22,197 nt of DNA from Paraspadella gotoi. Its lineage: Eukaryota > Animalia > Chaetognatha. Shown piece after piece: positions 861 through 21,460 of the stretch (within the stretch, counting starts at the first letter, position 1; each line of letters begins with the position of its first letter). The notes beneath the pieces were generated by a model. That model was not told the DNA's origin, made no database searches, and worked only from the letters and a program-made list of their open reading frames with translations. Location of the stretch: positions 1 to 22,197 of the forward strand of contig JBJCIZ010000039.1 in NCBI GenBank assembly GCA_051294375.1, read 5' to 3'. The translations under genes and the position numbers were made by a program.

Positions 861-966
<106 letters not shown>

Positions 967-2257
967 ATTTTAGTTGCTTGGTTTCGCTCGGTTTTTTGCC
1001 TCGTCGATTGAAAATTAAAAACCCTGAATGGATATTTAACAAAATTTAAAAAGGCCTCTTCTTTCTTTTCAGTGTTTTCTTTACCGTGGGAGGTCGAGTT
1101 GCTACTATGGCAACAAAGGTTGCCAGTCTCTTCATTGACAGGATCGAAGTTTAGTGAGACTTTTAAATCGCCGGTCATAAACTGTGAGCCAGATAAATTG
1201 ACCGCTTTTCGTCAGACGAGTCCTCAAACAACTGACGGTATTCAGGGCGAAAGAACGCACAAAGATGGTTTACATGCTTACGAATTTTAACTGGCCACTA
1301 GGGCTTAGGGGAACTCGAAGCGCAAGTTGGTGTGCCGTGCGCGACGCGCCACTTCGGCGAAATGGCTACGGAACTCTGTTAGGAGGAAACTCTTTAGTTG
1401 GGGTTTTAATATTCTCGTAATAATGTTTCTTTCATGAAAGGCGAGACAAGAAAAATGCATAAATTACCCATTTTATCAAAACTGATCGTAATCTGTTTTT
1501 CAAAATCCCTGAACATTTTTTTAATGAATATAAGACTGCGATTGCGGTACGGTTGCTTTTATGACAACAACTACATATTTTGGCATTGCATTTACTGGGT
1601 TGCGTGGTTTAGAGATCTCCCCGATGGTTGCTATGGTCTGGGGTGAATGTAGGGTAGGAATGCGATATTGGGTCAGTTAACGCCTCGCCCGCCCACACTG
1701 TTGCATTTGACTCATAATAGAATCCGACGGACTTTAGAAAAAGAGAATATTAATCCTGAAAATCTCCCTTTGCCTCGGTTCTTACTACATTTTTTAAGTC
1801 GAGAGTTTATTTAGGTTTGTAGTGATTTTTTTTTTTCGTAGTGTCCATTTTGTTTTTAGAAAAGTGTAAAAGAAATTTTGTTTAGATAATCCGTATAGTA
1901 AATTTTTTTCTTTCATTTAGCTATTTTTTTAGAAAATTTTTTTTTCACGTCGTTTAGCGATATAATAAAATTATTTTCGTGCACATTTTCTTTCTCAGTT
2001 TTTTGTTTTTTAAATGCCTCGCGGTAATCTTGACCCATTTCGGAATCCATCGCCACCACTGGGATTTCCCATAAACGCCGAGAAGTTCGACGCCTACGCG
2101 GAATTGATCCAGCAAGAATTATAGAATTAATAAAGGGTGCTTTGGACGAAACTCAAGTTGATCCAGTCCCGCGATCAATCACCATAGACAATATTAGAAT
2201 ATTAAAGCGCCAGGACAATACTCTAAGAATCCGCTGCACAATTCGGACAAATGGACA

Positions 2258-3412
2258 ATGAAGATGAACGACGCGGCTGGCCAGGGAGTTGGCGACAACT
2301 CTAGCTACAGGTATGAAAGAAGGTTGAAAGCCCAACACGAGCAGACTCGTGAAGACATGGACGCCTTTGGTGAGTGGAATCATCGTTATATGGAAAAACA
2401 AACAGATGCTTTTCAACATTTAATTGATTTACAGCATAGGAATCATCAAGAGGATCTAAAGATAATGATGAACAAGATGGAGGAAATGCAAATTTCTCAT
2501 CAGCTTGCTGCTGAAGCAGAAGCCAATGGTGAAAATTAATCTTCCAAAGTACGATGGCGTCTCCGTGGCATTTGAGGATTGGCGGGATAACGTAAGTGCA
2601 ATCTGTAAGTCAAATGGATGGGAAGATGTTAAAAGAATCATGGAAATCCTTCCGTCGTCCCTTACTGGGTCTGCTAAGCGAGCCTTTGAATCTCTTTCAG
2701 GAGAGGAAAAGGAGAATTTGGAAACTATGTTTGTTGGAATGCAGCTGCAACTGATCCCTCGTCGGAAGAAAGGAATCGCCAGTTGTTTGCTTCAGCAACG
2801 AAAAATTCGGGAGAAACTATGACTGCCTTTATCAACAGGTGTAAAATGTATTTAAGAAGGTTTAATATGAATCCGTCATCTGATTTAGCGCTTGAAATGT
2901 GTAAACAAAAACTTCTTTCTAATTGTCGTTCAACAGACAGCCGCATAATTAAAGCAACAGTTTCAAAAAATGCTTCTTTGCAGGAATGGACTCAGAAAGC
3001 GGACGAAATTATTGGGACGAACGATTCGTGCATCGGAGGAGTTACTGAACCCGATGACGCGGCGACGGATAAAAAGGTAAGCTCGGCGTCGTTTAAAGCA
3101 GTCGACAGTAAAAACATAGCTTGGGTCCCGATGGTATATGCTAATAATGAATTTACTCCATATCAACTGCAGCCTGTTCCCATGTCGCCGCCGACTAGCT
3201 TTCAAACTCGGACACGGTCCTCTGTCTCCACGGGCTCTTCAAGCTCCCAACGACGGCCAGGGAATGGAATAACCTGTTGGAACTGTGGAAAGCCTGGTCA
3301 TGTTCGTTCTCAATGTAGAAAAAGATTCACAGGTAATCAAAATACAGAGGAAAATATAAATCAAAGGGAAACTCAAATTGAAAATACAGTACAGAATCCT
3401 TTAAACTCCTAA
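2258..3412 (+). pseudogene. gag: Gag (capsid plus CCHC nucleocapsid), split into three ORFs by two frameshifts
   Basis: LPKYDGVSVAFEDW...LTGSAKRAF capsid-like motif (2505-2822); GETMTAFINR MHR-like motif; zinc knuckle CWNCGKPGHVRSQC at 3275-3316; ORFs at 2258 and 2783 share a frame, 2505 is +1. Confidence 0.85.
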
Positions 3413-3433
3413 AGCCCTCCTATTTAGGAGGGC
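3400..3433 (+). promoter_or_regulatory. -1 programmed ribosomal frameshift signal (gag-pol)
   Basis: T TTA AAC at 3400-3406 in X XXY YYZ phase in gag; 7-nt spacer; stem GCCCTCCT(3414-3421)/AGGAGGGC(3426-3433); -1 frame is open into pol at 3442. Confidence 0.85.
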
Positions 3434-3441
3434 AAAAATTT

Positions 3442-6282
3442 ATGACATCAAGAAAACCTTTTCCGGAATATGAAATAATAAGTTTATTTGCAGAACATGC
3501 TAATGTTAATTCGTTCTTACCAAAGGTTAAGGAAGATTTTTACGACGACCTCGAACAACAACCGTCGGTCTCTTTATTACTTGGAAGCATTAGAGGAATA
3601 CCATTAAATCTCGTAATTGATACAGGTGCGGCCAGGTGCTTGCTACTTTATGAACTATATTGTAAAATAAATCCAGATAACTCTTACATGCTTTATCCTT
3701 ACGACAAATGTTTTGAGGCAATAAATGGTAGTAAGCTTGAGTGTATTGGATTTGCAAAATTACCAACAATATTTTTTGGGATAAAAAATAATTATGAGGC
3801 CACAATTAAATTCTTTATAATCAAGGATCTCGCTGTAGAAGCTTTACTCGGTTTAGATGAAGTCAATCGTCACGGTCTCGTATTAAACGTCGCCCAAAAT
3901 TCTTGTTTGCAGCCAAAAGCTGGGGAACTCATTTTACAAAAGGTTTTTCGAGACCCAATCCAAATCCGTTCGGTGACGGTGGAAAGAGACGTGATGATCA
4001 AACCTCTTTCGCTCGGATGGGTGCCATTAAAGCTTCCAAACTGTCAACGCGGCGTTCTTGGGATAATGGAACCTATTCAGGAATCCTTTACAGGTGTTTT
4101 TATAGCAAATATTTTGTGTTATGAAGAGGATATAATATATGCCAAAGTAGCAAATCTAACAAAGGTTGAATTTCCCTTTTGTCTTGGAGAGGTTTTTGGA
4201 GAATTTTTTCCAATTGAAAATGATTATTTTAATAGGGAAGAATCTAATGCGTTTGGCGTCGGGAATGTGGAACCGCTGTTTGACTCAAGAGGGGAAGAAA
4301 AAGAAAATTTCGACGAAGCTAAGGATCTCGATATGTTCCAGGCGGAGCCGTTGGACGACTGTGATTTTGGATTGGGGAATTCTCCGGCGACCGAGGAAGA
4401 AAAACAAAAGGTAAAAGCAATAATAAGGAAATATAAAGATATTTTTCAAATGGACGGCGTCCCAGTTTCCGTGGCTCACAGAGTAAAGCATAAGATAATT
4501 TTAAAGCCGAATACTAAACCAATTAAACAAAGGATGAGAAGGTTCTCTGATTCTCAAAATGATATTATTGATAAAGAAGTTGAAAAACTGATTTTGCAGG
4601 ACATCGTGGAGCCCTCAACGTCGGAATGGAATAATCCCATCGTTTTGGCGTCGTCACCATACAAACCTAAACCAAGAGTCTGCTTTGATTTACGACAAGT
4701 TAATAAAGTAAGCCTGTCTGACGCTTATCCATTGCCTCACATTGATAAAGTGATTAGCCACTTCTCCGGTATGCGTTATTTTTGTAGCCTCGATCTTTAT
4801 CAAGGATATCACCAGATGGAGTTGGAGAGAGAGAGTCGGCCAATTACAGCCTTCAGTACCCGGCGTGGCCTTTGGCAATTCAAGCGGCTTCCATTCGGAA
4901 TTTCCTCAGGGCCGGCGTCTTTTCAAAGGTTGGTGGAAGATGTGCTGAAAGGATTAAATTGGGAGATTGCTATAGTTTTTATAGATGACATTATTTTATT
5001 TGGTAAAACAATACAAGATGTTTCAGAGAGGTTAGAGATTATATTTCAAAGAATTCGGGATTCTGGTTTAAAATTGCGGGCAGCAAAATGCAGCCTTCTG
5101 CAGGATCATGTTGAATATTTGGGACACGTTATTTCACACCAAGGCATAAAACCCTGTAGGCGCATTGTGTCAGCCATTTTAGATTTTCCTCGGCCGCACA
5201 ATGTTAAAACAATTATGCGCTTCTGTGGACTTTCAAATTTTTATAGAAGTTTTATTAAAAATCACTCTGTCATCTTGGAGCCACTAACCAGACTGACTCG
5301 TAAAAATGTTGATTTTAATTGGACAGATGAATGCGAATCTGCGTTTGGGGCTATTAAAGAAAAGATTGCTCTCATTCCGACTCGACACTATCCTGACCCA
5401 AAGCTTCTCTATGTTTTGTCCTGCGATGCAAGTGCATTTGGTATTGGCGCTGCGCTGCATCAAACAGACTCAAAAGGTAGGTTAAAGGTTTTGGGCTTTG
5501 GATCCCATCTTCTGAAACCATCTGAAAGATTTTGGTCGACAACTGAAAAGGAATTATATTCTATAGTTTATTTCATAAGAAAATTTCGGCATTTTTTGAC
5601 AGGAGTGGGATTTTTAGTTTTAAGTGATCATGGTGCTCTCCGTTATATTAATACTTTAAAAGATTCAACATCGCGAATCGCTCGCTGGTTGAATTTTTTA
5701 CAAAATTTTCATTTTGAAATTCACCATATTTGTGGCACTGCCAATGTTCCTGCAGACGTTCTCAGCCGCGCGCACGAACCTATCTTGGATACGACTCCTA
5801 CAATTGCCCAACAACTTGAAAAACCCATCTTCAAACTTGTGCGTGGGAAATCACCGATCTTTACGGAATTTTTCCGTCTTCAAGCGCCATCAGAAGAGGA
5901 CTTTGACGACGAAGGTAATTTAAGAATAGATAGCGATATAAGGGAAACTAAGATAAAGGAAGAACCCGCTCAATCCGTTTTAAAGAAGTTGGAAAAAGAG
6001 TCTGTCAATGGCTGTCAATCTTGCTGGTTGATTCAGGAAAGAAATTTTCTTTATACCATAGATGAAAAATTCGAGAGCCGAGACGACGACGGAGATGACG
6101 ATGGCGGCGAAAGAAACGTCGTCCACAATGGTCGCAGTAAGGATGAAGAGGGCAACGAAGACTGTTATGGCGACAATGGCGACGGCGAAGTCGCCGATAA
6201 CAGTGAAAACGACGAGAATTGCGGCGTCAATGGTGACGACGGAAATGGCACCACCAGCGATGACGATGGCAGTGAAACATGA
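3442..6282 (+). CDS. pol: Pol: aspartic protease, reverse transcriptase and RNase H with acidic C-terminal tail; no integrase
   Basis: LVIDTGA (protease); CFDLRQVN, DAYPLPHID, SLDLYQGYHQ, LPFGISSGPASFQR, FIDDII (RT); CDAS, EKELYSI, SDHGAL, ADVLSR (Ty3-type RNase H). Probably entered by frameshift at 3406. Confidence 0.97.
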   Translation: MTSRKPFPEYEIISLFAEHANVNSFLPKVKEDFYDDLEQQPSVSLLLGSIRGIPLNLVIDTGAARCLLLYELYCKINPDNSYMLYPYDKCFEAINGSKLECIGFAKLPTIFFGIKNNYEATIKFFIIKDLAVEALLGLDEVNRHGLVLNVAQNSCLQPKAGELILQKVFRDPIQIRSVTVERDVMIKPLSLGWVPLKLPNCQRGVLGIMEPIQESFTGVFIANILCYEEDIIYAKVANLTKVEFPFCLGEVFGEFFPIENDYFNREESNAFGVGNVEPLFDSRGEEKENFDEAKDLDMFQAEPLDDCDFGLGNSPATEEEKQKVKAIIRKYKDIFQMDGVPVSVAHRVKHKIILKPNTKPIKQRMRRFSDSQNDIIDKEVEKLILQDIVEPSTSEWNNPIVLASSPYKPKPRVCFDLRQVNKVSLSDAYPLPHIDKVISHFSGMRYFCSLDLYQGYHQMELERESRPITAFSTRRGLWQFKRLPFGISSGPASFQRLVEDVLKGLNWEIAIVFIDDIILFGKTIQDVSERLEIIFQRIRDSGLKLRAAKCSLLQDHVEYLGHVISHQGIKPCRRIVSAILDFPRPHNVKTIMRFCGLSNFYRSFIKNHSVILEPLTRLTRKNVDFNWTDECESAFGAIKEKIALIPTRHYPDPKLLYVLSCDASAFGIGAALHQTDSKGRLKVLGFGSHLLKPSERFWSTTEKELYSIVYFIRKFRHFLTGVGFLVLSDHGALRYINTLKDSTSRIARWLNFLQNFHFEIHHICGTANVPADVLSRAHEPILDTTPTIAQQLEKPIFKLVRGKSPIFTEFFRLQAPSEEDFDDEGNLRIDSDIRETKIKEEPAQSVLKKLEKESVNGCQSCWLIQERNFLYTIDEKFESRDDDGDDDGGERNVVHNGRSKDEEGNEDCYGDNGDGEVADNSENDENCGVNGDDGNGTTSDDDGSET

Positions 6283-6644
6283 TTAATGATGGTGATGGAG
6301 ACGCTGCCCTCGTCAAAGACTTAAGATATGCACCCCGTGGAATGCTTTTCTTTTGACATTAAAATAATTGATGATTCTTTTAAACAAAACAATTTATTCA
6401 TAAAAATAGTAAAATTAACGTCGTCCGGGGATATATATTTTCTTTTCTCTAAAAGCTCTTTCTGAACATTGTGTTTTTGTCTTAATCAATTCAATTGGCG
6501 AGTTTTGGGATGTTGGCTATTTTGTTGCTCATAAATAGGGCCCATTTTATGTGTAATTGTTTGCCTTCATTTCTTTATTTGTCGCGTGATTTAAATATTT
6601 TTTTGTTTTCTTTGGTTTTGTTTTGTTCCATTTTGCAGGACGAA

Positions 6645-7877
6645 ATGGACGGAGAAGCCGGTACCGATGGAGATATGATGGAGCAAGGCCTTGCGGTGGG
6701 ACAACCAAATTTAGATCCCGTATCTCAAGCGGATGGAACCGTTTTTGCTTTGATTGATAACAATGGGAATGTTATGGAGTGGCTTTTAAATGAAGAGAAT
6801 CCGGGTACAAATGTATCCGAAGAAGTCGCTACTGCTCAACCCTCAAATGAAAGTATTTTTCCAGTCACGATCTCTAAAGGGTTGGTTCAAGAAATCTCTC
6901 ACGATGTAAACTTGGAAAAAAGTTTACCGATCAATGAAAACATTATTTTGCCAGAGGCGATGGGGTTGGACTTGTTGGCGGAAAACAAAGAAAACATACC
7001 CCCGATATTTTCCCCGGTTGACTTTGCAGTGCCGCAAACACTGGTTGATCAAAACCCTTTAAATACTACCAGCAAGCAAGAACGTGGACCTCCCTCACTC
7101 GACAAATTGCCTAAGGAGATTATTTCATTAATTTTTCAGTATCTCCAGCCACATGACGCTTTGCAACTGGCGGCCGCTTGTAAGTCAACCTACGATCTGT
7201 CACCGCTTCGAATCTGTCATAATGACGACATTCCAGGTTGTGGTGGTGACAATTTAATTGTCATTTTGGACAACGTCGACAACTACAAGAGGTTACAAGT
7301 GGCTCTTCAAGAGGGTCGGTTTCAAACTGTGAATGTAATTTTGGCGAGCAACCTGACTGAGTTGGAATCTCCAACCGAGTGGAATAATTTAAAAAAATTT
7401 TTTTGTTATGCAACCCAGGATGGCGTTTTTCCCATTGACAAATTAGAAATATTTCGAGAAGTTGGAGATTGTGGATGTAGACTGGGCATAATTGCTAATT
7501 ATGTTAGATGCCTAATCATGTCGGGTTACCAAGATGTGTATGTTCTGAGAAAGCTAGTAAAAAATCTTATAGGGACTGGGGGTTCATTCACAGAGAAGAT
7601 CGTCTTGACTGGAGAGATCAGCCTACGCGAAGCCACTGGATTAAGGAAGAAGATGCCAACGAGCATCGACCTGGCAATACGGGAAGACCGTCTTATTGTT
7701 CGAGGAGTCGCTGTGGGAAGCCTTAATGCACATATGGAAGGAATAAATATTTTTACGGAAAAAGAAGAATCCAAGTTTGTGCCATCACGTTTGTTTGGAA
7801 TTGACATTGATTTCATGCAGGATGATGTAAGGGTCCCTCTTGCAATTTTAATGGCAAGGGCAGTTTTACTGCGCTGA
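6645..7877 (+). CDS. F-box domain protein (accessory ORF, ~410 aa)
   Basis: LDKLPKEIISLIFQYLQPHDALQLAAACKSTYDL (~7098-7200) fits the F-box consensus; acidic N-terminus; the track's start at 6495 reads through a T-rich tract ending TTTTGCAG(6638), so ATG 6645 is preferred. Confidence 0.75.
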   Translation: MDGEAGTDGDMMEQGLAVGQPNLDPVSQADGTVFALIDNNGNVMEWLLNEENPGTNVSEEVATAQPSNESIFPVTISKGLVQEISHDVNLEKSLPINENIILPEAMGLDLLAENKENIPPIFSPVDFAVPQTLVDQNPLNTTSKQERGPPSLDKLPKEIISLIFQYLQPHDALQLAAACKSTYDLSPLRICHNDDIPGCGGDNLIVILDNVDNYKRLQVALQEGRFQTVNVILASNLTELESPTEWNNLKKFFCYATQDGVFPIDKLEIFREVGDCGCRLGIIANYVRCLIMSGYQDVYVLRKLVKNLIGTGGSFTEKIVLTGEISLREATGLRKKMPTSIDLAIREDRLIVRGVAVGSLNAHMEGINIFTEKEESKFVPSRLFGIDIDFMQDDVRVPLAILMARAVLLR

Positions 7878-8019
7878 GAATCGCTTTCTTCAGTAAAGAC
7901 TGATTGATCAACTTATTGCTCTTATGTTTCTTTTGGTCAAATGTGAAACGAGCTGATTCTCTTTAAAAGTAATAAGCTTTGTTTGCCGTTTTCCCCTTGT
8001 AGGTCATCTTTATCATAAA

Positions 8020-8448
8020 ATGTCAGATATTGTCGCGGAGGCGATGCAAGCGGCACTGATCGCAGATCAAGAATCTCTGGAGACTCTGGAGAACGTCTCC
8101 ACAACACTTGATGAGTTTTGTGCTTCGGGTGGATCAAGCAAGTCGGGGAATCGTGTTGATGAAATGGCGATTCTATCTTTGGAAAAGCCGTTTCAAAAGA
8201 TTCCTGAAGGGACAGTTTTTGTATGTCAAGCTTGCGGCAAAACATTTGGTCAAAAAAAGGGTCTAGACGGGCATAAGCGAGTCCATGGTAAGCATGAGAT
8301 CAAAGAGTCATGGGACAGCGAAACGGAATGCAAACGTTGCCGGAAAACTTTACCTTCCGAAGACTCAGCGATTATCCACGTCTTGAAAAGACACAGGCCT
8401 CAGTTGTACGAGAAACTGAAAGGCGACATTTTGTTCAATACAAAATGA
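8020..8448 (+). CDS. Small two-finger C2H2 zinc-finger protein (142 aa)
   Basis: FVCQACGKTFGQKKGLDGHKRVH (canonical) and CKRCRKTLPSEDSAIIHVLKRH; AAAATG start context; acceptor CCCCTTGTAG ending 8002. Confidence 0.85.
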   Translation: MSDIVAEAMQAALIADQESLETLENVSTTLDEFCASGGSSKSGNRVDEMAILSLEKPFQKIPEGTVFVCQACGKTFGQKKGLDGHKRVHGKHEIKESWDSETECKRCRKTLPSEDSAIIHVLKRHRPQLYEKLKGDILFNTK

Positions 8449-8569
8449 ACGGGTTCTTTAGTGTTTCAGTTCATTGTGACTCATGTATGCAAACTGTGGC
8501 TAGTCCTTGTTTTGCTCGTTTTGATTTTCTTTTTTCAGCTAAAATTAAATCGGTTTTGCATGATCGATC

Positions 8570-9136
8570 ATGGAATGGCTTAACCCTTCAAAGGGTCAAT
8601 TGATGGCTATGATCAATTTTGGCCACAGCCAGGTGCCAATACAGTCGGTTCCACCAATGATAGTTGTCATGATTGAGCACCCTTTAAATATGGCAACCAA
8701 AATAGCCTACGAAATGGCAACAATGGCTGCATCAAATTCATGGCGTCAGGAAGCCAACATTCTTTATTATCTTCTGAGTGGAAACACGAAAGCAATCGTC
8801 AGTGCCCTGGTTAATGTAGAAATAAATGGCATGACAACAAACCTTAAGGATTTGAATTTATTAAGCAACTCACTCGCCCTTACTGAACAATTTCACTCTA
8901 CCATGGTTGGATACCACCAAAGCTCAACCTTGGGCTCAAACGTAAACCCAAGATGGTTTAACTTGTCAGGGATTCTTTTGATGGCTCTACAGCTTGTTGG
9001 GTTGCTAATCAAAGTTTTTTATAAACGAGAAGCCACAAATCTTAATTTATTGTATTTTACGTTTTATCGTGAATGGATGAGAAAGAAAATTGTTGTGAAA
9101 GGAACTACCGTTTTAGTTGATGCCAAGTTTGCATAA
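8570..9136 (+). CDS. Hypothetical protein with a possible transmembrane helix (188 aa)
   Basis: Open 188 codons in AT-rich DNA; hydrophobic WFNLSGILLMALQLVGLLIKVFY followed by basic residues; acceptor TTTTTTCAG ending 8538. Confidence 0.6.
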   Translation: MEWLNPSKGQLMAMINFGHSQVPIQSVPPMIVVMIEHPLNMATKIAYEMATMAASNSWRQEANILYYLLSGNTKAIVSALVNVEINGMTTNLKDLNLLSNSLALTEQFHSTMVGYHQSSTLGSNVNPRWFNLSGILLMALQLVGLLIKVFYKREATNLNLLYFTFYREWMRKKIVVKGTTVLVDAKFA

Positions 9137-9271
9137 AAATTTTTTTGAGTCGATGTGTCAATTCTTGTTGTTGTCTGTATATATATATTTTTTTTTTCCC
9201 TGTTTGTTTATTTCCAGGTACTCTCTTATTCCGTTATTTTTTTTCTCGAACACTCGCACCTGCAAGAGAAA

Positions 9272-10465
9272 ATGTCGGGAGAAGAAGCAACCAGGTCGCG
9301 ACAAGCCCTTGAAAACAAAGTTCGCGAGCAGCGGACAGAAATAAACACTTTGAAAGTATCGCTTGAGCGGGCCGAGCGTGACGTATCTTTCTTACGGACG
9401 CGCCTTCGCCATGAAGAACATGAAATGAATCATCTTCGATCGTCTCTTCGCCTTTGTCATGAGACATTAAGTTCTGCAATAAATCCACCCTCAGGTGGAA
9501 CATCGCGACCATCAAGTTATGATGGTTATCGTCAAGGGGAGCGTCGCTCAATGATTCCGCGTCAGAATCGTTTTATTCAGAAACGTCCGCAATCAGCCTC
9601 AACCCCGGAGCGTGATCGAATCCGGAAAACCTCTCTGTCTCCGGTTCCGCGGAAAAAAGCTGAAAGAAGCAAGTCGCCTGAATACACGGTGGAAGATTTG
9701 CAAGAAGCAGATGAGCGCCGTCTCTCGATCAACTTAAAGGCAAGAGAAATCTTGGCTAAAGATCAAGATGACAACGGGCGAAAGCGATCAGGAGCACGTT
9801 CCCAAGAGTGTCGTCGTCGAGATACCGAGCGCAAGGACGACGATCGTAGAAAGGAAGATACGGTAGTAATTCCGAAACAAAAGCCACCGGAAAACCAGGA
9901 ACAAAGTCGAACAGAAAAAGAAAAGAAAGCAAAGAGAAAAGACAATGAGAAGACCGATAGCGAATCCGACCTGTCGCTTATTGCCCGTTGTTCGGACGTC
10001 GACATGATAAACCTAAGTCTGGGCTCCAACCTCCCGTCATCGCCAAAAGAGCCGACATCCTACCAGGCCCTTGAAATGGCCCCGCCTTCGTCTTCCAAAG
10101 GCAAAAAGTCTTCCAAGGAACCAAAAAAATCGGTGGATGAAGGGAGCGTAAGGCATATGCTCGACCTACTGAAGAAGTACAAGGATAAGGCGGATTGCAA
10201 GGAGCCGACGCATCAATTTGGGCAGCATTTTGCTCGCCGTTTGGCCCAAAAACGAAAATATCTTTCCATTAAAGAATTTCTCAAAGATAATTGCAAGTGC
10301 TGTGGCCTAGATCATCAGGAGGAAAAAAGATGTGAGCCTAGATGTCCAAGTTGTTGGCATAAACACCGTGGGCATAAAGGCCCATGCTGTCAATGCATAG
10401 TTGATTGGAATGAGGAATTAAAGAAACTATGGGATAGACTGGCGTCCTCGAGCTCTGGAGATTGA
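9272..10465 (+). CDS. Coiled-coil, R/S/K-rich protein with Cys/His-rich C-terminus (~397 aa)
   Basis: Heptad-like LENKVREQRTEINTLKVSLERAERDVSFL; charged low-complexity middle; CKCCGLDH...CEPRCPSCWHKHRGHKGPCCQC; upstream in-frame part (9155-9271) is T-rich with TTTCCAG ending 9217. Confidence 0.7.
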   Translation: MSGEEATRSRQALENKVREQRTEINTLKVSLERAERDVSFLRTRLRHEEHEMNHLRSSLRLCHETLSSAINPPSGGTSRPSSYDGYRQGERRSMIPRQNRFIQKRPQSASTPERDRIRKTSLSPVPRKKAERSKSPEYTVEDLQEADERRLSINLKAREILAKDQDDNGRKRSGARSQECRRRDTERKDDDRRKEDTVVIPKQKPPENQEQSRTEKEKKAKRKDNEKTDSESDLSLIARCSDVDMINLSLGSNLPSSPKEPTSYQALEMAPPSSSKGKKSSKEPKKSVDEGSVRHMLDLLKKYKDKADCKEPTHQFGQHFARRLAQKRKYLSIKEFLKDNCKCCGLDHQEEKRCEPRCPSCWHKHRGHKGPCCQCIVDWNEELKKLWDRLASSSSGD

Positions 10466-10556
10466 GTTCTTTAGCTTTTCAGTTCAATTGCTTGGGTTCA
10501 ATTTCTTGGGTTCTGGAGATTGAGTTCTTTAGCTTTTCAGTTCATTTGCTTGGGTT
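10454..10556 (+). repeat. ~45-bp direct duplication (period 58) spanning the stop codon of the Cys-rich ORF
   Basis: TCTGGAGATTGAGTTCTTTAGCTTTTCAGTTCA(A/T)TTGCTTGGGTT at 10454 and 10512. Confidence 0.9.
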
Positions 10557-10785
10557 TGCGTTTTGGTTACAAAAGTCTTGTTTTTAGTTGGTTTTTTTTT
10601 TTTTTTTTCTTCTTTTAGTCAATTGTGTTCTATCTGTACGTTTTAAAATATGTGAAATGAAAATTTGACATTTGTCCTTTCACTTACTTGTTTCATTTAT
10701 CTTCTGTTAGGAAGATCATCATCATCATTATGATTATATATTGTTGCACAACAACCTTATTTGAAAATGACATTTTTATATTCAG

Positions 10786-12375
10786 ATGGAATTATTCAGT
10801 GAAAATATTTTTACTGTGTTTGAAGATGAACATTACGCCGCTATAAACGTTAAAAGCCATCAAGCCACGGATCCCGAGTTGACTACAATTGTCAACATAA
10901 TAAATGAGAAAACTGAAACGCTAGAGAAATCCCTACTGCCGTGGCGAAATTCGTTTAAACAACTCTGTGTTGAAGATGGTATTCTGTACAAGGCAACTAC
11001 CAATGGTCTCGTGTTGGTCGTCCCAAAATCTCTGCGCACTAAAATTTTACATCGCGTTCATGGCTCGAAGTGGGCATCGCATTTTGGGATCAACCGGAGC
11101 TATCATGTTTTAAAAAGCAGGTATTTTTGGCCTTTAATGCTTAAGGATTTAGAAGAGTTTATAAGTCAATGTGAAGAATGTTTAAGGCGAAAGAACCCAG
11201 TAAAATCACAAAGTTCCTATTCTCAACCTATTAATTTTGCTTCCACACCAGGAGAGGTTATCGCACTCGATGTTAAAGGCCCTTACATTACGAGCGAAAA
11301 AACGAATGCCTATCCTTTTGAATGCCGGTTCTGCCTCGTCATCGTTGACTACGCCAGCAGGTATTCTATGGCGATTCCGTGTGAAAATGTAAAGGCGGAG
11401 GTGGTGGTTGCGCATTTGTTTAATCGCTGGTTTCCTTTGTTTGGTCTCCCGACGAGAATAGTAACGGATAATGGGCGAAATTTTAAATCTAAGATTATTA
11501 AATATATGTTACAGTGTCTTCAAATTGATCATAGTTTTACTGCCATTTATCACCCTCAGTCTAACGGGTTGTGTGAATCAATCAACAGAGTACTGGGCGG
11601 GATTCTTTCTTCCACTATTGACGGCACTGTGGAAAAATGGCCCAGCTTCATCGACGCCACCATGCTGGGATACAACTCGGCTCCCCAAGAAACAACAAGA
11701 GTCTCCCCAAATCACATTATCTTTGGGCGCGAGTTGGTTCAACCACTGGACATTGTGTTTAACACAAATCCGTATTCGAAGGTAAAAATATCAGTAGACA
11801 AATATATAATTGAAAGAAATACATTAAGGGAAAAAGCTTTAAATTTTGCAATTTTGAATACATCTATGTCGCAGGAAAAAACGGCAAAACGTCTTGCAAA
11901 TGAAAAGGTAATCAACGATTTGGAGCCGGGCGATCCTGTTGCTTATAAACTGCCCAGAAAGAAAAACAAACTGAAACCAAAATGGGAAATTAACTATAAG
12001 GTAAAAAAGAAAATTTCGCCATTGACATATGTAATTAGTAATGATGTAAAATCAAAAGTAGTTAATCGATCTCTGTTGAAAAAAGTTCCACCAAAATCAG
12101 AACTTTCCTCATTTGATATTGTAAATTTAGGAAATTTGACCTCGACAGCCAAAGCCGAAAAAACAAAAGATCAAGCTGACGACATTGCCTGGAATCCAGA
12201 CGTTTCAAGTTCGGGTGAAGACGACGCCAGTGATAGTAAATGTGAAGATATCAATGACTGGTCATTCGGTAATAAAGATCATGGCGCGGAACCAACGACT
12301 CTTAATACTTCTTTAACTAAAACTCTACGTAACCGCGATAACTTGAGAAAGCCAAGTCGTTATGAGAAATATTGA
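10786..12375 (+). CDS. Gypsy-type DDE integrase as a stand-alone ORF (529 aa)
   Basis: HHCC zinc domain (HGSKWASHFG...CEEC); ALDVKGP, VTDNGRNF, YHPQSNGLCESINR (D,D,E); GPY/F-like KLKPKWEINYKV; ATG directly after TTCAG. Confidence 0.95.
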   Translation: MELFSENIFTVFEDEHYAAINVKSHQATDPELTTIVNIINEKTETLEKSLLPWRNSFKQLCVEDGILYKATTNGLVLVVPKSLRTKILHRVHGSKWASHFGINRSYHVLKSRYFWPLMLKDLEEFISQCEECLRRKNPVKSQSSYSQPINFASTPGEVIALDVKGPYITSEKTNAYPFECRFCLVIVDYASRYSMAIPCENVKAEVVVAHLFNRWFPLFGLPTRIVTDNGRNFKSKIIKYMLQCLQIDHSFTAIYHPQSNGLCESINRVLGGILSSTIDGTVEKWPSFIDATMLGYNSAPQETTRVSPNHIIFGRELVQPLDIVFNTNPYSKVKISVDKYIIERNTLREKALNFAILNTSMSQEKTAKRLANEKVINDLEPGDPVAYKLPRKKNKLKPKWEINYKVKKKISPLTYVISNDVKSKVVNRSLLKKVPPKSELSSFDIVNLGNLTSTAKAEKTKDQADDIAWNPDVSSSGEDDASDSKCEDINDWSFGNKDHGAEPTTLNTSLTKTLRNRDNLRKPSRYEKY

Positions 12376-12440
12376 TTTCTGTTGTGCTTATTAGACAATT
12401 GGAGTTTTGTTCAAATTTTTTCTGCTTAAATTTTAAATAG

Positions 12441-13436
12441 ATGCCGCGAGAAATTATCAATGATCCGGCCGGGCGCGACCCTAAATTCCTCCCAATAACC
12501 GAGAAAACTTTCATGGGTATTAACTTTAAAGTAAGATGGGAAGAAAGTAAAAGAAATTGTTTGTACAGGACGCTCGCCTCAGGCGTTTTTGGTGGGACGA
12601 AAACTTATAATGAAGTAAAGAATGAGATTATTTACTACGCTAAAAACAATTGGGATGCTTTTGCGCCAATGATCAAAGAGCTTCATGGGATAATTGAATA
12701 TAAAGAGTACGCCACGGCTCTTCAACTCAATCTCCATAGTCCTCGAGAATCTGAGGTTTTGATCGCAACGGAAGCTTTTAAGACTCCGCTCATCGCCATT
12801 CCTTCGGCTCGAGACGATTTCCTTGCGTTTAATCTAAGAAAGTTTACAAGTCGGCCCGTCTTCTTTCTCCTTTCCGCTTTTTTCGACGACGACGTGCGCG
12901 CGTGTTGGCTGCACGCAGATTCGTTGGAGCCGGCAAGACCCCTTACGCGAACGGAGGCACTACGAATGCTTGATCCCCGTGACGAAGGAACACAATTTCT
13001 TGAGACAGGATGTCCAGTTGATTTTAAAGCTGCGGAATTTAAATTACTGTATCGTCTAAAAGTCGTCGAAAATGAATCACTTTGCTCATGGAATGGACTT
13101 CAGTTAAATCCTTGCAAACAAAACATTTTAATGAGCATGAATGTGTTCAGCATTCCCCCGCAACCGGACTCATGGCCTCACCGTATGACGCGTCTTGTCA
13201 TGAACAACCTGTGGCAGCAACACCACGCGCCATTCTGTTCACTAACAGTTGCTTTTGAAAATATCATACTCAGAACGTATATGATGCGAAACGGTGATCG
13301 TGGAAGAAAACTTACATTCTACGATATAGTGGGAGATGAGTGCGCCTTTTGTCTTCATTTTGATGTTGGCGTCAAGTGGGCAAGATCTCCGGTAGAAAGA
13401 AAAGGATCGTTTTTACATTCAGTCTCATCATTTTAA
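12441..13436 (+). CDS. OTU-like cysteine protease (deubiquitinase-like) domain plus unknown C-terminal domain
   Basis: RNCLYRTLASGVFGG..YNEVKNEIIYYAKNNWDAF resembles OTU DGNCLFRA..; ESEVLIATEAF resembles the E-L-x-A helix; WLHADSL resembles HYDSL. Confidence 0.6.
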   Translation: MPREIINDPAGRDPKFLPITEKTFMGINFKVRWEESKRNCLYRTLASGVFGGTKTYNEVKNEIIYYAKNNWDAFAPMIKELHGIIEYKEYATALQLNLHSPRESEVLIATEAFKTPLIAIPSARDDFLAFNLRKFTSRPVFFLLSAFFDDDVRACWLHADSLEPARPLTRTEALRMLDPRDEGTQFLETGCPVDFKAAEFKLLYRLKVVENESLCSWNGLQLNPCKQNILMSMNVFSIPPQPDSWPHRMTRLVMNNLWQQHHAPFCSLTVAFENIILRTYMMRNGDRGRKLTFYDIVGDECAFCLHFDVGVKWARSPVERKGSFLHSVSSF

Positions 13437-13942
13437 TGACTGTAACGGAAGTTGTTGTGAACAACGAATATGCCACCAGCATTTACAGGCACGGGAGATC
13501 CTCAACGGCGTGTAACCGTTCAGATGAAAAGATATGTTGCCAATGCGGGAGGATGATGCTGGAAAAGATTGGAATCGATATGTCCGGGACGAGAGAAGTG
13601 GACGAATGGGTCTCTTCCCTCTTTATTAATCGGAGGTATTGTTCAAGAGACAATGTTTTTCGCGTACAACGCTACCTCGCTCTTGAAGCCCTCATGCCGA
13701 AAGGGGCGACGTTCCACCCCCTCTTCGTGGCTCTTCTTCTCAGCTATGGACTCGATTATCTACTAAAATTGAAAGCCGTTCAAAGTGACGCCTTCCTAGA
13801 AAACCAATGGTCAAAAATTCGATCGCTATTCACCGAAGAACGTCGTCTCAAAACGTATCAAGGAATGTACGTTGTCGAGGGAGTCTATCAGACGGGTAAA
13901 ACGCGCCGACGATTTCTTACTGTTGAGCAACAATGGGAATAG
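13436..13942 (+). CDS. Hypothetical protein (~168 aa) with N-terminal Cys/His cluster
   Basis: ATG 13436 overlaps the upstream stop (TAATG); HGRSSTAC...CCQC; acceptor TTTTTACATTCAG ending 13422; AATAAA downstream at 14095. Confidence 0.6.
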   Translation: MTVTEVVVNNEYATSIYRHGRSSTACNRSDEKICCQCGRMMLEKIGIDMSGTREVDEWVSSLFINRRYCSRDNVFRVQRYLALEALMPKGATFHPLFVALLLSYGLDYLLKLKAVQSDAFLENQWSKIRSLFTEERRLKTYQGMYVVEGVYQTGKTRRRFLTVEQQWE

Positions 13943-14326
13943 TTTTTAAATTTTTTTGTGTAGTCAATTTTAATTCGTTTCAAGTAATCTTTGAGGACGA
14001 TTTTATTTTATATACTTTGCCTCGTCATTTGTTCTATGAAAATTTTATTTAAACGTCGTCAATTGTCATGAGTAAAATTCTATCCACGTTTAAAAATAAA
14101 AAGAATTCTTTGTCCTCCACTTGAGTAAAATTAAAGCAAATCCTTAGTCAGCATTTATAATTAAGAAGGGAATTCGAAGTGGTACAGGAAATAAATAATC
14201 GTCATTAATAAATTAAATATAACCATGATAGGATCTTAGCCTGTAGGACTATCGCGGCGGTTTGGTGTTCTGCCCGGCGGATACGTCGATCTAAGAAATT
14301 CTCAGCGCTCATTGATAGTAGTCGTT

Positions 14327-14456
14327 CTGGTCGGGGAGAGTTGCAACCTTTTCATCACCCTGTTCCGGACTCCTGGTCGGGGAGAGTCGCAGCCTTTTCG
14401 TCATCCTGGTCGGGGAGAATCATTATTTCGTGACTCGGAATCCTGGTCGGGGAGAG
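14327..14456 (+). repeat. Four copies of CTGGTCGGGGAGA with related spacers
   Basis: Copies at 14327, 14373, 14406, 14443; fifth partial copy TGGTCGGGGAG at 15243. Confidence 0.9.
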
Positions 14457-14835
14457 ATCTCCGATATCACCTACAATTTACACACATTACAATAGGAACT
14501 AAAGACTAAAGACGTCATCAAATTAAGGTGAAGATTTTGATTTATTAATACGTCTCATTGGTTTGTTTTTTTGTTTTTTGTTTTTTTTGTTTTTTTTTGG
14601 TTTTGTTTTTACAGATAAGTTTTTAGAACTGTGTTTCTGTAAAAATTTTTTTTTTTAAGTGCGTCTCTCTGTAAAATTGTCGTTTTTGTTTTTTTTTGTG
14701 TGGGTTTTCTAGATTCTTTAATTTGCCTCTTTAGATTGTATCTCTGTCATTAAAGGTAAGTATAAGAGATAGATTCTTAAAACAATACTGAATAAGATTG
14801 AGATTTTATCAATCCCATTTGTATAAAGTAGTAAA

Positions 14836-15207
14836 TCATTTTAAGTCCAATTGATTTTTGTACCGTTTCATTAGTGGGCATATTATTAGATTACCATGCG
14901 GTTCTATATTGTTTAATAGTTTAATTAATTCATGGTTAATTTTGTGATGACTTGATAGAATAATTATGTTATTAATGATTGAGAGTTTATCTCTATCTTG
15001 GGTGACCTTTTCATAACTCATAAATACTTTATTATTCAAAGGTGAAATCCATGGTCGAATTGGACAAAGGAAGTACTCCCATGATAGAATTCCATATTTC
15101 ATATACCTGAGCCCCACTCCTATATAAGTTTTTAGTAACTGTGTCTCTGTAATTTCTTTTCTTTTTTTTATTGAAATGAATATTTTTGTAGCAGGTGCCG
15201 TTGCCAA
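14836..15207 (-). CDS. Possible antisense hypothetical protein (123 aa)
   Basis: Open 123 codons in very AT-rich DNA; no recognisable motif; non-ATG start in the track. Confidence 0.25.
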   Translation of the reverse strand: MATAPATKIFISIKKRKEITETQLLKTYIGVGLRYMKYGILSWEYFLCPIRPWISPLNNKVFMSYEKVTQDRDKLSIINNIIILSSHHKINHELIKLLNNIEPHGNLIICPLMKRYKNQLDLK

Positions 15208-15257: not shown

Positions 15258-15402
15258 TTTCTTCCTTCCTATCCTTAGGTTGCTGAGCAGGGATGAGAAT
15301 ATTAGCTCAGGTACCTCCTCTTTCCTTCCTATCCTTAGGTTGCTGAGCAGGGGTGAGAATACTAGCTCAGGTACCTCTCTCTTCCTTCCTATCCTGAGCA
15401 GG
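15258..15402 (+). repeat. 60-bp tandem repeat, ~2.4 copies, next to the assembly gap
   Basis: TTCCTTCCTATCCTTAGGTTGCTGAGCAGGG..GAGAATA.TAGCTCAGGTACCTC repeated with period 60. Confidence 0.9.
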
Positions 15403-15421: not shown

Positions 15422-15446
15422 NNNNNNNNNNNNNNNNNNNNNNNNN
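15422..15446. other. Assembly gap (25 N)
   Basis: N run. Confidence 1.
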
Positions 15447-15900: not shown

Positions 15901-17254
15901 AAGGTTTCCAACAAAGAATTGAGTAAGGACAGTGATCAGTGGTGAGGACAGATTTTAGGAAGTGGCTAGTTTGAATAAGTTTTGAAAAGAAGTGAAAATT
16001 GGTGAGAGAGATAGAGAGAGAGAAGGGAGAGAGAGAGAGACAAAATAATAAATAATTACATTTGAGCAATGTACAACATAGATAAAGATAATGGAAACTG
16101 TTTTATAACAAATTGAAATAATAATTTTTGAAATGAAATTGAAAAGTTGAAAATTGAAATTGAGAAGTTGAAAATTTGAGATTTTAGAGAGATAGATAAG
16201 TAAGATTGTAGTGAAATATAAGAATTAAGAAAGAGCTCAAAATGAGCTGGGCCCCCCCGGTCTTATGAAGGAGAGGTATTGCTGACGGGGCGCGGTCATT
16301 GGCCGCGTCATGGGTTGAAGGATAATGGATTGATCTCGTGTTGGCTGGGTCAGGTATTGCTCCCTGAGGAAACAAACCCAAGGCCACCCTTATATCCCTC
16401 TGGCCTGATGCGCCTGCCGGTGGCCCTCTTCTCACCTGACGGGGAGGTGGGCGGGTATCCACTCTTGCCACTTTAGTGACTGGGATGGTGGAATCCTCAT
16501 CTTCCTGTAGCCGTCGTTTGGGGCGACGCCCAGACCTCAGAGAAAGAGGCTGAGTTGCTGCCCGGAGATTCGGAGTGTCAGGTGCCCATCGCTTAACGAG
16601 GGTCTCCGCCTTACCCGTTGAGTAGGGATAGGATCTCTCTTTCTTTTAATTTTGAGAGCCCTTCAGACATATGGCTATCGGATTCCTAAATTTGAAGTTT
16701 ATTGTAAAATCACAACATACCTTAAATGCGTTGACATTGTATTTAAGTTGAGAAATCCCTTTATTTTATATATAAAAATTGCATCGAAAATATTTTCCCG
16801 AGCGGACCAGTCTATTTGAATCTGATGGTTTGATGTCAAAATGATGGTTATTTGTCAAGAGGGAAAAAATGCGAGCCCTTCAGATCCAACAGGATCGGAA
16901 TCGAGTGTTTTTACATCTATTTTTTACCTGAATTTTTCCCAGGGGTGTTGACATTATTTGGTAGTCAGATTTTAATGAAAATCTCCATTGATTTCTAAGA
17001 ACGACGTCGACTCCTACCTGGCGAATAGTTTTCGAGCGTCGTCGGGCTTTCGAACTTCACTAGGGATACTGGTTTCTGCGAAGGGAGAAAATTTTGGGAA
17101 ATAAAATTTTCGGGCCAGTTCTTTGGGACCGGTAGAACGTTGACAATTTACCGAATACGTACATCGACCACACCGCGCTGAACGAGGACGCCGTCAAACC
17201 CGGAGACCGGTGAGGAACGGAGAAGAGCGTATTAAACCCTGAAGCCGACGCAAA

Positions 17255-18730
17255 GTGAGTATGACGAGGCCTACGCCGCAAGGCGATGGCAGGAGTGAAA
17301 CCTTGGCAGAAAAAACTGGTTATTTCAACAATCCTAACAACGTAAACGGACGCGGGGTACGATCGTTCCTCAACAATTTACAAGCGGAGTTAGAATGTTT
17401 TAAGATCGCGTATCATCAAGCCAAGGTTGAGCTCTCGGTTCGAACCGCTCACAAAGCTAACGGAACCTGAGAGCGAGTTTGGACGTTATTTCTTGAACTG
17501 TCACGTTTTATTGCACTGCACCCATCTTTCTAAACCGATCGTGTGCGTAGATATTTAAACGAGGAATCACCTGAATCCGTACCGTACGTCGTAGGGAATT
17601 GTCCTATTGTTTTTTATATTGAATTGAGTGCCGCGTCAAAGTCGAATCTGGAAGCTAAAGAAGAGGAAGGGGGGGAAGAGGAATTAGTTACCGTTGAGGA
17701 GCTGACGGGATCGCCATGTTCCCCCACAAAAAAAAACCCACCTTTGCGTCATAGTAGTCCGTTGCCGCGCGTACGAAACTGGTTGGAGTCGACGCCGGAC
17801 TCGTCCGAATCACCGCGTGCGGAGGAGGAGACGCCCATGTCGCCGGCCCACTCTAGAATAAGCGTCGTGTCGTCAAGGAGAAATACCACGGCCACTACGC
17901 TCTCACCACGGTCATCACGTGAGACCGTGCGTCGAAGGTTAGTCGAAGAGCTGGAAAACATGGAAAGAAAAAAATTGGAGTTGGAGGCGAAAGAACAGAG
18001 GATGAAAATGAAAGGGAACAGGTCGAACTTAATTTTCAAAAGAAAGAGACGGAAATGGAGGAAAGAATGATGAGGGAAAAATTAAAGCGTATAAACGAAA
18101 GCAGTACTGACGAGTAAGGCGTAGTAAAATTTCTAAATTTAACTTTATTAAAATTTTAAAAGTGGGGAACGAACAACATTATATTAATAAACATTTATGT
18201 AATAACAAAATTTATAATAAATTTTACAATTTACGCAGTAGGCCATATTTATACTAGTACTAAACCAATAAATGTTAAAATTTCAAAACAGTTTTTTTCT
18301 AAGATTTTTTGCAGATTTGGATTCGTCATAAAAAGTTGATATAAAGAAATATAATTAATTCTTTTTGAAAAATTCCTTTATTAAGTGGTCAAAAATTAAA
18401 AAAAGCTATACTTAAGCTGAAAATTAATTTTTATATATTAATATAGTTTTTTTAATTTTTTAACCTACTTAATTGAAAGAATTTTAAAAATGATTTATAT
18501 TTTCTTTTATCAACTTTTGACGAGGAATTTAAATCTGAATTAAAATTGAGAAAAGCCTATTTTGAAATTTTTCGATTTTATAAAGAATAAAAAAACAAAA
18601 AAATAATTTTTTTTACAAATTAATGTTCATTGAAGGTATGTTGTTCATAATTGACTTTTAGAATTTTCGTATGTAACTTTCACTACGCCTTACTGACGAG
18701 GTAACACAGGCTGCCACACAGGCACTATGA
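17255..18730 (+). pseudogene. Decayed ORF with Ser/Arg-rich segment and Glu-rich coiled coil, interrupted by a MITE; possibly a retroelement gag N-terminus
   Basis: SRISVVSSRR..SPRSSRETVRRRLVEELENMERKKLELEAKEQR continues after a frameshift as EKLKRINESSTDE and, past the MITE, VTQAATQAL*. Confidence 0.35.
18115..18692. mobile_element. 578-bp foldback MITE with 8-bp TSD (hAT- or P-type)
   Basis: Ends TAAGGCGTAGT / ACTACGCCTTA are perfect inverted repeats; TSD CTGACGAG at 18107-18114 and 18693-18700; interior is an imperfect palindrome (e.g. AAAAGTTGATATAAAGAAATATAA vs TTATATTTTCTTTTATCAACTTTT). Confidence 0.92.
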
Positions 18731-18972
18731 CACCCCAAAATAATAGTAAGTGCTATAAAAATTTGTTTCATTTAGCGGGCAGCACAATGAATAAAGTCGT
18801 CATAAAAACTTTGTGTAGATCAGTACTTTTGGTTTAGATATCATTAAATTAGAAATTTATCATTTTTATGAAATCTTTTTTTGTATCTGCTTTGGGAACT
18901 GCTGTACGAGAAGCAATTCTTGCTCGAATGTAACCATCTCTATTATTAAAACCAGAAACATGGGAAGCAACA

Positions 18973-21062: not shown

Positions 21063-21460
21063 ACTTGGGTGAAGGGGGGAGAAAAAAAAGATTAATAAAT
21101 GTATATACAAATTATTAGTTTGCGTTTTTTTCATTTGCTAATATATGTTTAAAAAAAAAAAAAAGTGTCTTTCTTTCTTTCTTTCGTTACAAAGCGACTA
21201 CAAAAAAAAAGGGGGAAAAATGGATGGTATATCCCACGTTAGTTACCTATATTAAAAATGGAGATGAGAATCCCCTACGTGAGGAAAAAAAAAAGTAGGA
21301 AATTTTAGTAAATGTTACGTGAATTTTAGTAGACAATTTTAGTTAAATATTAACAAAGTATTTTAGGAAAAAGAGAAAAAAATCACGGAATAACTATTAA
21401 CAAAGCCACTGGTCACGTGACAAAGACAAAAGAAAAAAGAAAAAAGAAAAAAGAAAAAAA

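What the first reader, a model, noticed from the sequence alone, without database searches (positions are those of the whole stretch)
6590..13436. Each downstream ORF has its own polypyrimidine tract and YAG acceptor just before the ATG
Seen: TTTTGCAG(6638) before ATG 6645; CCCCTTGTAG(8002) before 8020; TTTTTTCAG(8538) before 8570; TTTCCAG(9217) before 9272; ATATTCAG(10785) and TTTTAAATAG(12440) directly abut the ATG; TTTTTACATTCAG(13422) before 13436; also TTTCTCAG(1998) upstream of gag. Seven of seven downstream ORFs show this, mostly behind long T-rich spacers. Inference: a single polycistronic RNA is resolved either by a common 5' donor spliced to alternative acceptors (HIV-like) or by spliced-leader trans-splicing, i.e. 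a retroelement built as a eukaryotic operon. T-rich DNA yields chance acceptors, so this needs testing.
Basis: partly seen in the sequence, partly recalled or inferred. Interest (0 to 1): 0.85.

Follow-up and report, generated by a model that had tools for sequence, protein, structure and literature searches.

The report
Retrotransposon hiding a spliced second gene
A gypsy-type jumping gene keeps its integrase apart from its other enzymes, and its RNA is cut at twelve introns that lie inside the gag and polymerase coding sequence, leaving one long new reading frame that likely encodes a second, hidden protein, while the splice signals in front of its extra genes are real but only one was seen in use.

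Summary
All eight acceptor motifs are at the stated places. Six stand before real ORFs and together beat shuffled spacers (p 0.0006 to 0.002); only 6638 and 8538 are strong alone. The one at 13422 lies inside what reads as a single ORF. RNA contigs of one run show 8002 used, from a donor inside the F-box ORF. No common donor or spliced leader was seen; contigs cross 1998, 6638, 8538, 10785, 12440 and 13422 unspliced, but contigs can drop such forms.

The larger result was not in the finding. The RNA has 17 joints (16 shown, all GT-AG): 12 in gag-pol, 3 in the integrase (one inferred). The pol frame is open across all of its introns, which remove the catalytic cores. The spliced RNA holds a 432-codon open frame over eight junctions, six of nine exons in frames other than pol (0 to 2 of 20,000 synonymous shuffles). 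Five relatives form a clade whose Pol also ends after RNase H. Best reading: a complex, Cer1/CERV-like retroelement with a splice switch between replication RNA and a dual-coded spliced RNA. The hidden protein and its function are inferred.

The parts
2014..3412 (+). gag region with one CCHC knuckle; broken into several frames in the window
   Evidence: zf-CCHC E=4e-6; ORFs; RNA contig differs by small indels
3400..3433 (+). slippery heptamer and 8-bp hairpin, likely -1 frameshift from gag to pol; lies inside intron 3333-3525
   Evidence: sequence, fold -16.1 kcal/mol; pol frame open from 3382; function inferred
3442..6282 (+). pol: protease, RT, RNase H, no integrase (946 aa)
   Evidence: Pfam RVT_1, RT_RNaseH; five relatives end likewise
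2370..6061 (+). twelve GT-AG introns of 65-398 nt inside gag and pol: 2370-2434, 2592-2700, 2839-2983, 3077-3172, 3333-3525, 3626-3912, 4094-4235, 4411-4599, 4708-4787, 4929-5326, 5477-5755, 5915-6061
   Evidence: joints in contigs of run X1, boundaries
3273..6286 (+). hidden spliced frame: 432 open codons over nine exons, ATG at 3300 (423 aa), six exons in frames other than pol
   Evidence: nulls; protein inferred
6612..6638 (+). strongest acceptor of the element; phase 0 to the F-box ORF; crossed unspliced by the contig
6645..7877 (+). F-box ORF (410 aa)
   Evidence: Pfam F-box-like E=1e-6
7775..8002 (+). 228-nt intron from the F-box ORF to acceptor 8002; spliced and unspliced paths both present; the spliced F-box frame stops at 8016-8018, one base before ATG 8020
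   Evidence: (joint, depth 2; unspliced contig 7747-8032)
8020..8448 (+). C2H2 zinc-finger ORF (142 aa)
   Evidence: Pfam
8512..8538 (+). strong acceptor; out-of-frame ATG and in-frame stop before the ORF; crossed unspliced
8570..9136 (+). 188-aa ORF with one hydrophobic stretch, no family
9191..9217 (+). acceptor, phase 0 and stop-free to the next ORF; not covered by contigs
9272..10465 (+). 397-aa Arg/Ser/Lys-rich ORF with Cys/His-rich end, no family
10778..10785 (+). YAG directly before the integrase ATG; crossed unspliced by a depth-2.9 contig
10786..12375 (+). free-standing integrase ORF (529 aa) with introns 11361-11588, 11782-11874 (shown) and 12001-12130 (inferred)
   Evidence: Pfam Integrase_H2C2, rve; relative P0001
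12431..12440 (+). YAG directly before the OTU-like ATG; crossed unspliced
12441..13942 (+). OTU-like ORF and the ORF at 13436, likely one gene of 500 codons broken in the window; in-frame intron 13636-13743
   Evidence: PDB OTUD1 E=0.003, Atlas OTU 0.85
14095..14212 (+). three AATAAA signals after the last ORF, likely the common 3' end
   Evidence: use not shown

Best explanation
This is a gypsy-type retroelement whose RNA is spliced at GT-AG introns inside gag, pol and the integrase, so that it likely switches between an unspliced RNA that makes Gag and Pol and a fully spliced RNA whose 432-codon overprinted frame would make a second, probably regulatory protein. Shown: twelve introns in gag-pol and two in the integrase are removed in RNA (a third is inferred); they take out the frameshift site and the catalytic cores; pol is nevertheless open across them; the spliced RNA runs on into the accessory genes. 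Inferred: replication needs all these introns kept, which would need a Rev/CERV-like factor, and the hidden frame or the 397-aa basic ORF is the candidate. The acceptors before the downstream ORFs most likely belong to the same host-type splicing code and serve as minor or stage-specific 3' sites that bring each ORF near a 5' end, or fuse it to upstream exons. One (8002) is shown in use, in cis. The integrase would need such a site with its own introns kept, and packaging apart from Pol.
For: 15 of 17 joints listed and one more, all GT-AG. One frame is open for 411 of 411 codons over pol: 0 of 20,000 synonymous shuffles of whole pol, 28 of 20,000 random exon placements, 2 and 1 of 20,000 shuffles restricted to exons. 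Off-frame stops: 0 in the 282 codons used against 97 in 1006 in introns. Six of eight introns are phase 0 in the hidden frame, p 0.02. With amino acids fixed, third-position GC is 0.14 higher in exons, 0 of 5000 shuffles. 15 of 17 introns fall in replication ORFs, which are 53% of coding length, p 0.003. Five relatives form a clade (SH-aLRT 100, quick tree) with Pol ending after RNase H. Precedent: Cer1 needs its splice sites skipped for Gag-Pol and makes CERV from a spliced RNA with one exon in its own frame (PMC3315495, PMC10309623).
Against: One run, contigs only, no raw reads, library type guessed. The hidden frame is closed upstream by a stop at 3270 and lies behind earlier ATGs, so how ribosomes reach 3300 is unexplained. 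None of 7 off-frame pieces matches Pfam. Much of the +1 stop depletion follows from exon amino-acid make-up: only 0.5-0.9 stops expected per exon. A DNA-only version of the test also flags 1 of 12 ordinary gypsy pols at p 0.0025 and one at 0.048. No DNA of close relatives was found, so conservation of introns or of the frame is untested. No joint to 6638, 8538, 10785 or 12440 was seen. No LTR pair lies in the window, and gag is broken there.
Confidence: 0.6

Rival explanations
1. Spliced-leader operon: on top of the cis-splicing, a host leader is added in trans at each ORF acceptor and gives nested mRNAs that share one 3' end.
For: Top-ranked acceptors at 6638 and 8538 are crossed unspliced; no donor-like site was found within 450 nt upstream of 9217 or 10785. 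Two AG stand directly before ATG (p 0.008); the relative P0001 has Gln directly before the same Met-Glu-Leu start, which fits CAG-ATG. Cer1 is SL1 trans-spliced (PMC3315495). 8538 cannot give an in-frame fusion.
Against: No loose end at any ORF acceptor. No AATAAA in the six spacers, so not the cleave-and-splice operon type (recalled). The one used acceptor is used in cis. Whether the host has leaders is unknown.
Confidence: 0.3
2. Alternative last exons: phase-0 donors of the hidden frame are spliced in cis to the ORF acceptors, fusing a shared N-terminal part to the F-box, 397-aa, integrase or OTU-like ORF, as CERV joins gag-region exons to an ORF behind pol.
For: Donors 3333, 4411, 4708, 4929, 5477, 5915 are phase 0 in the hidden frame; acceptors 6638, 9217, 10785, 12440 are phase 0 and stop-free to their ORF (4 of 6). 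CERV is built this way (PMC10309623).
Against: No such joint among the 16 shown; the deepest contig over 6638 is unspliced. 4 of 6 in phase is weak. 8002 and 8538 do not fit.
Confidence: 0.2
3. Cryptic or defensive splicing: the host spliceosome cuts any long A/T-rich RNA into exons of 90-190 nt, which disables the element. The open frame only lets the RNA escape decay, and no protein matters. The ORF acceptors are by-products of T-rich spacers.
For: Several donors are weak. The hidden frame has no known domain and a poor leader. Four of six ORF acceptors are not significant alone. Spliced integrase ends 7 nt after the inferred third junction.
Against: Accessory ORFs of like base make-up are almost intron-free (2 of 17 joints). 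Decay filtering would favour in-frame introns, yet five of the eight introns of the hidden frame shift frame. Codon choice follows the exon-intron map.
Confidence: 0.25
4. Each downstream ORF has its own promoter and poly(A) site, and contigs merely overlap.
For: Contigs cannot prove single molecules; coverage has gaps at 9183-9297, about 10541-10705 and 10876-10917.
Against: An intron joins the F-box and zinc-finger ORFs; spliced contigs bridge pol to F-box and integrase to OTU; spacers of 65-362 nt hold no AATAAA.
Confidence: 0.07

Closest known systems
Cer1 of C. elegans and its CERV protein (PMC3315495 passages; PMC10309623 abstract, Background section, passages)
   Same: Gypsy element whose Gag-Pol RNA must skip consensus splice sites; a spliced RNA encodes another protein from exons that overlap the polyprotein, one in its own frame; SL1 trans-splicing occurs.
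   Different: CERV has five exons, four at the gag start and one behind pol, and Cer1 Pol includes integrase. Here twelve introns run through gag and all of pol, five exons overprint pol itself, integrase is a separate ORF behind four extra genes and is itself spliced. No sequence comparison with CERV was made.
Complex retroviruses such as HIV-1 (Rev passage in PMC10309623; the rest recalled)
   Same: Unspliced RNA for Gag-Pol by -1 frameshift; several acceptors before accessory ORFs; overlapping frames.
   Different: HIV uses one major donor and removes gag-pol as one intron (recalled). Here gag-pol is cut into short exons, and the one used ORF acceptor takes a local donor.
Foamy viruses (PMC3705302 abstract)
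   Same: An enzyme precursor made apart from Gag, from a spliced RNA, that needs its own packaging route.
   Different: There the whole Pol is separate; here only integrase is, and RT falls among gypsy-like sequences.
LTR retrotransposons with extra ORFs (PMC6431247 passages)
   Same: Captured ORFs behind pol; ubiquitin-related modules occur in planarian Burro.
   Different: [quoted passage not shown]

Membership tests
Ty3/Gypsy LTR retrotransposon (Metaviridae) | gag with CCHC, then protease, RT, RNase H, integrase in this order | tested here: met
   Pfam; RT-RNase H relatives are gypsy-like
Ty3/Gypsy LTR retrotransposon (Metaviridae) | integrase part of the Pol polyprotein | tested here: not met
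   Pol stops at 6282, integrase starts at 10786; five relatives also stop 92-104 residues after the matched RT-RNase H block. The donor at 5915 is phase 1 in pol, so it would not join pol to integrase in frame.
Ty3/Gypsy LTR retrotransposon (Metaviridae) | long terminal repeats | tested here: inconclusive
   No 5'-3' repeat above shuffles; a poly(A) run bounds the left side and an N gap lies at 15422-15446, so ends may be missing
Ty3/Gypsy LTR retrotransposon (Metaviridae) | primer-binding site, polypurine tract, target duplication | not tested
   No host tRNAs or second copy available; four GGGGAGA repeats at 14320-14456 are only a lead
Cer1/CERV-type splice-regulated element | splice sites inside the polyprotein gene that must be skipped | tested here: met
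   12 joints in gag-pol, pol open across its own
Cer1/CERV-type splice-regulated element | spliced RNA encodes another protein using a different frame | tested here: inconclusive
   432-codon frame beyond chance; translation not shown
Cer1/CERV-type splice-regulated element | upstream exons joined to an ORF behind pol | tested here: inconclusive
   phases allow it; no joint in contigs
Cer1/CERV-type splice-regulated element | product needed for export of unspliced RNA | not testable with these tools
   needs experiments
Spliced-leader operon | leader added at downstream acceptors | tested here: inconclusive
   no loose ends; contigs drop short tips
Spliced-leader operon | poly(A) signal between cistrons (recalled) | tested here: not met
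   0 of 6 spacers hold AATAAA; one holds ATTAAA upstream of its acceptor
Spliced-leader operon | host has leader RNA | not testable with these tools
   no genome held for the window
HIV-like common-donor splicing | one 5' donor joined to several ORF acceptors | tested here: inconclusive
   the single joint to an ORF acceptor uses a local donor; minor joints can be lost from contigs

The most novel reading that the evidence does not exclude
A clade of gypsy-like retroelements built as an intron-rich operon: pol is a dual-coding gene whose spliced form makes a 423-aa regulator, the integrase is a free gene, fifteen introns must be held back together for replication, and each accessory gene (F-box, zinc finger, OTU-like and two orphans) gets its own mRNA through its own acceptor, by leader trans-splicing or as an alternative last exon.
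Probability: 0.25. Interest if true: 0.92.

Novelty: new variant of a known kind. Interest (0 to 1): 0.78.

Why it matters
Retroelements must export unspliced RNA past a host that splices what it can. Cer1 solves this with a few exons. This element carries about fifteen working introns in its replication genes and a second frame written over reverse transcriptase and RNase H. It is a compact test case for coordinated intron retention, for overprinting on constrained enzymes, and for packaging an integrase made apart from Pol. It also warns that DNA-only annotation misses the spliced gene and RNA-only annotation misses the transposon. Six paper searches for such an arrangement listed nothing closer than Cer1; they cover open-licence papers and preprints only.

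Tried and rejected
No whole genome is held, so copy number, LTRs and a host splice model could not be had; the acceptor matrix rests on 16 sites of the element itself, one of them inferred. No listed holder is on record as RNA; X1 is treated as RNA because of its GT-AG joints. I first read 14 extra letters of one contig as a leader before 8003; the record runs backwards, they lie at the masked repeat after 9168, and the idea was dropped (notes). Depth differences between genes were not used. The deepest contig begins a few bases behind AG 1932, in a T run; contigs cannot show starts. Locus searches: viral contigs, none; metagenomes, 22 loci at 23-39% identity, none of the close clade; 12 of 18 tried served as controls, 6 had short frames, 4 were not given. 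Integrase searches gave one close relative, P0001. The OTU-like ORF has one weak hit in 1.84 billion proteins; its single-sequence model had pLDDT 31.6 and was not searched. Atlas hits for the 397-aa ORF were under 0.9 and unnamed or unrelated. PDB sequence searches for three other ORFs gave nothing under E 0.05. The tree is the quick one, 56 rows, no bootstrap. A second overprinted frame in exons 4236-4410 and 4600-4707 was considered and dropped: zero stops there is expected (P 0.49, 0.36). Earlier findings by place and sequence: none. Supplements were not read; Cer1 splice figures there may bear on the comparison.
Full report
The element. From about 963 to at least 14,500 the + strand carries gag with a CCHC knuckle, a 946-aa pol with protease, RT and RNase H but no integrase, then an F-box ORF, a C2H2 ORF, orphan ORFs of 188 and 397 aa, a free integrase, and an OTU-like ORF. 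A slippery heptamer with a hairpin 7 nt behind it lies at the gag-pol overlap. The five best of 701 RT-RNase H hits (49-52% identity) also lack integrase domains and share a C-terminal motif after RNase H. Two of them have three cluster members of equal length on different contigs, so those ends are natural. They form one branch with the window, SH-aLRT 100 in a quick tree of 56 rows. One free integrase relative starts with the same Met-Glu-Leu. The split Pol is thus a trait of a clade. No LTR pair was found and no whole genome is held. The host is unknown.

The observation. All eight motifs are present. With a matrix from 16 RNA-based acceptors, 6638, 8538, 1998 and 9217 rank 1, 3, 7 and 13 of 738 AGs; 10785, 8002, 12440 and 13422 rank 34, 36, 65 and 159. 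Summed over six spacers the excess over base shuffles is p 0.0006 (matrix) or 0.002 (pyrimidine count); alone, only 6638 and 8538 pass 0.05 by the matrix. Two AG directly before ATG have chance 0.008. The seventh case falls: the RNA contig differs in length from the window near 13,400-13,500, and read through these breaks ORFs 12441 and 13436 are one frame of 500 codons.

RNA evidence on those acceptors. One run holds 79% of the sampled words; it is kept as contigs. A joint 7774 to 8003 shows that 8002 is used, from a donor inside the F-box ORF, beside an unspliced path. Contigs cross 1998, 6638, 8538, 10785, 12440 and 13422 without a joint; 9217 is uncovered. No loose end marks a leader. Contigs lose short tips and minor joints, so this limits only dominant use in this library. 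Spliced contigs bridge pol to the F-box ORF and integrase to the OTU-like ORF, and no spacer holds AATAAA. A shared precursor is therefore likely; how each ORF reaches a 5' end stays open.

One search lists 15 of 17 joints, all GT-AG: twelve in gag-pol, two in the integrase, one in the last ORF. One search adds the sixteenth. The seventeenth, 12001-12130, is inferred from record coordinates and has GT-AG ends. Introns are 65-398 nt and gag-pol exons 93-181 nt. Bin depths over pol equal those of exons alone. The introns remove pol residues 62-157, 218-265, 324-386, 423-449, 496-629, 679-772, 825-874 and integrase residues 192-268, 333-363, 406-449. By the alignments and recalled motifs these hold or split the active sites of all four enzymes; the frameshift site is removed too. 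Yet pol has no stop in its 512 intron codons, where the other frames have 97 stops in 1006 codons. Both forms are therefore kept by selection. Fifteen of 17 introns fall in replication ORFs (p 0.003; coverage of accessory ORFs is not complete).

The hidden frame. One frame is open for 432 codons, 3273 to 6284, with ATG at 3300 (423 aa). Three exons are read in the pol frame, three in -1 and three in +1. Over pol it is open for 411 of 411 codons: 0 of 20,000 synonymous shuffles, 28 of 20,000 random exon placements, 2 and 1 of 20,000 exon-restricted shuffles. Six of eight introns are phase 0 in this frame (p 0.02). Codon third positions follow the exon map with amino acids fixed (0 of 5000). Without RNA, pol has six off-frame open stretches of 60 codons or more against 1.4 expected (0 of 5000); the seven of 12 control pols at GC up to 0.42 with 852-873 codons have 0-3, but one GC-rich control also exceeds chance. 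Against: a stop at 3270 and earlier ATGs precede it, no piece matches Pfam (0 of 7), and part of the depletion follows from exon amino-acid make-up.

Mechanism. Most likely (0.6) a splice switch as in Cer1, carried much further. Spliced RNA is the form seen; it cannot make the enzymes but has the hidden frame and nearly intact accessory ORFs. Unspliced RNA would make Gag and frameshifted Pol and serve as genome. A Rev/CERV-like factor is inferred, not shown. The ORF acceptors most likely serve minor or stage-specific mRNAs, either by leader trans-splicing (0.3) or as alternative last exons in phase with the hidden frame (0.2; four of six fit). These two add to the main reading and do not exclude it. 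Cryptic or defensive splicing with no useful protein keeps 0.25.

Comparison. Cer1 skips consensus sites to make an 8-kb Gag-Pol RNA and makes a spliced, partly SL1-trans-spliced 2.4-kb RNA (PMC3315495, passages). Its product CERV has five exons, one in a unique frame, and is needed for export of genomic RNA (PMC10309623, abstract, Background section and passages). Foamy viruses make Pol apart from Gag from spliced RNA (PMC3705302, abstract). A review places extra ORFs behind pol or around env (PMC6431247, passages). Searches for introns with overprinting in pol, or for a separate integrase, listed nothing closer (listings only). The element works like Cer1 and is gypsy-like by RT. It fails the integrase-in-Pol feature and its LTRs are unshown, so it is filed as a new variant, not as a plain member. 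Two earlier notes on extra ORFs in other gypsy elements only add that such ORFs are common.

Verdict. Observation partly confirmed; interpretation partly supported. The acceptors are a real but unproven side of a stronger finding: an intron-riddled, probably dual-coding pol in a split-Pol clade. The splicing is shown in one library; the protein and the mechanism are inferred. Interest 0.78.

Noticed in passing
window 865-962: A run of about 97 A directly left of the element; it may be the tail of another retroposed sequence that cut off the 5' end, or an assembly artefact.
   Followed up: partly
window 2014-2261: Read through its breaks, the ORF from ATG 2014 is a separate frame of 82 codons overlapping the start of the long gag frame; acceptor 1998 is crossed unspliced.
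   Followed up: partly
window 8016-8022: After the 7775-8002 splice the F-box frame stops one base before the zinc-finger ATG, an arrangement that would suit termination-reinitiation (recalled mechanism).
   Followed up: partly
window 14320-14456: Four copies of a 21-nt repeat ending in GGGGAGA; further 60-nt tandem repeats at 15262-15398.
   Followed up: no
window 14526-14613 and 14756-15194: Donor- and acceptor-like sites that may mark introns in the 3' non-coding part; outside the stretch laid.
   Followed up: no
window 10447-10556: Two 52-nt direct repeats over the end of the 397-aa ORF; a strong orphan acceptor at 10618.
   Followed up: no
window 2809: One contig leaves the window here with 28 unmatched letters.
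   Followed up: no
window 18277-18571: A 300-nt imperfect palindrome, MITE-like.
   Followed up: no
window 17200-21100: Several orphan ORFs on both strands between T-rich spacers, no Pfam match; possibly another element or host gene. Tandem 306-nt repeats at 21414-22078.
   Followed up: partly
L009: A GC-rich ordinary gypsy pol with 11 long off-frame open stretches against 6.2 expected.
   Followed up: no
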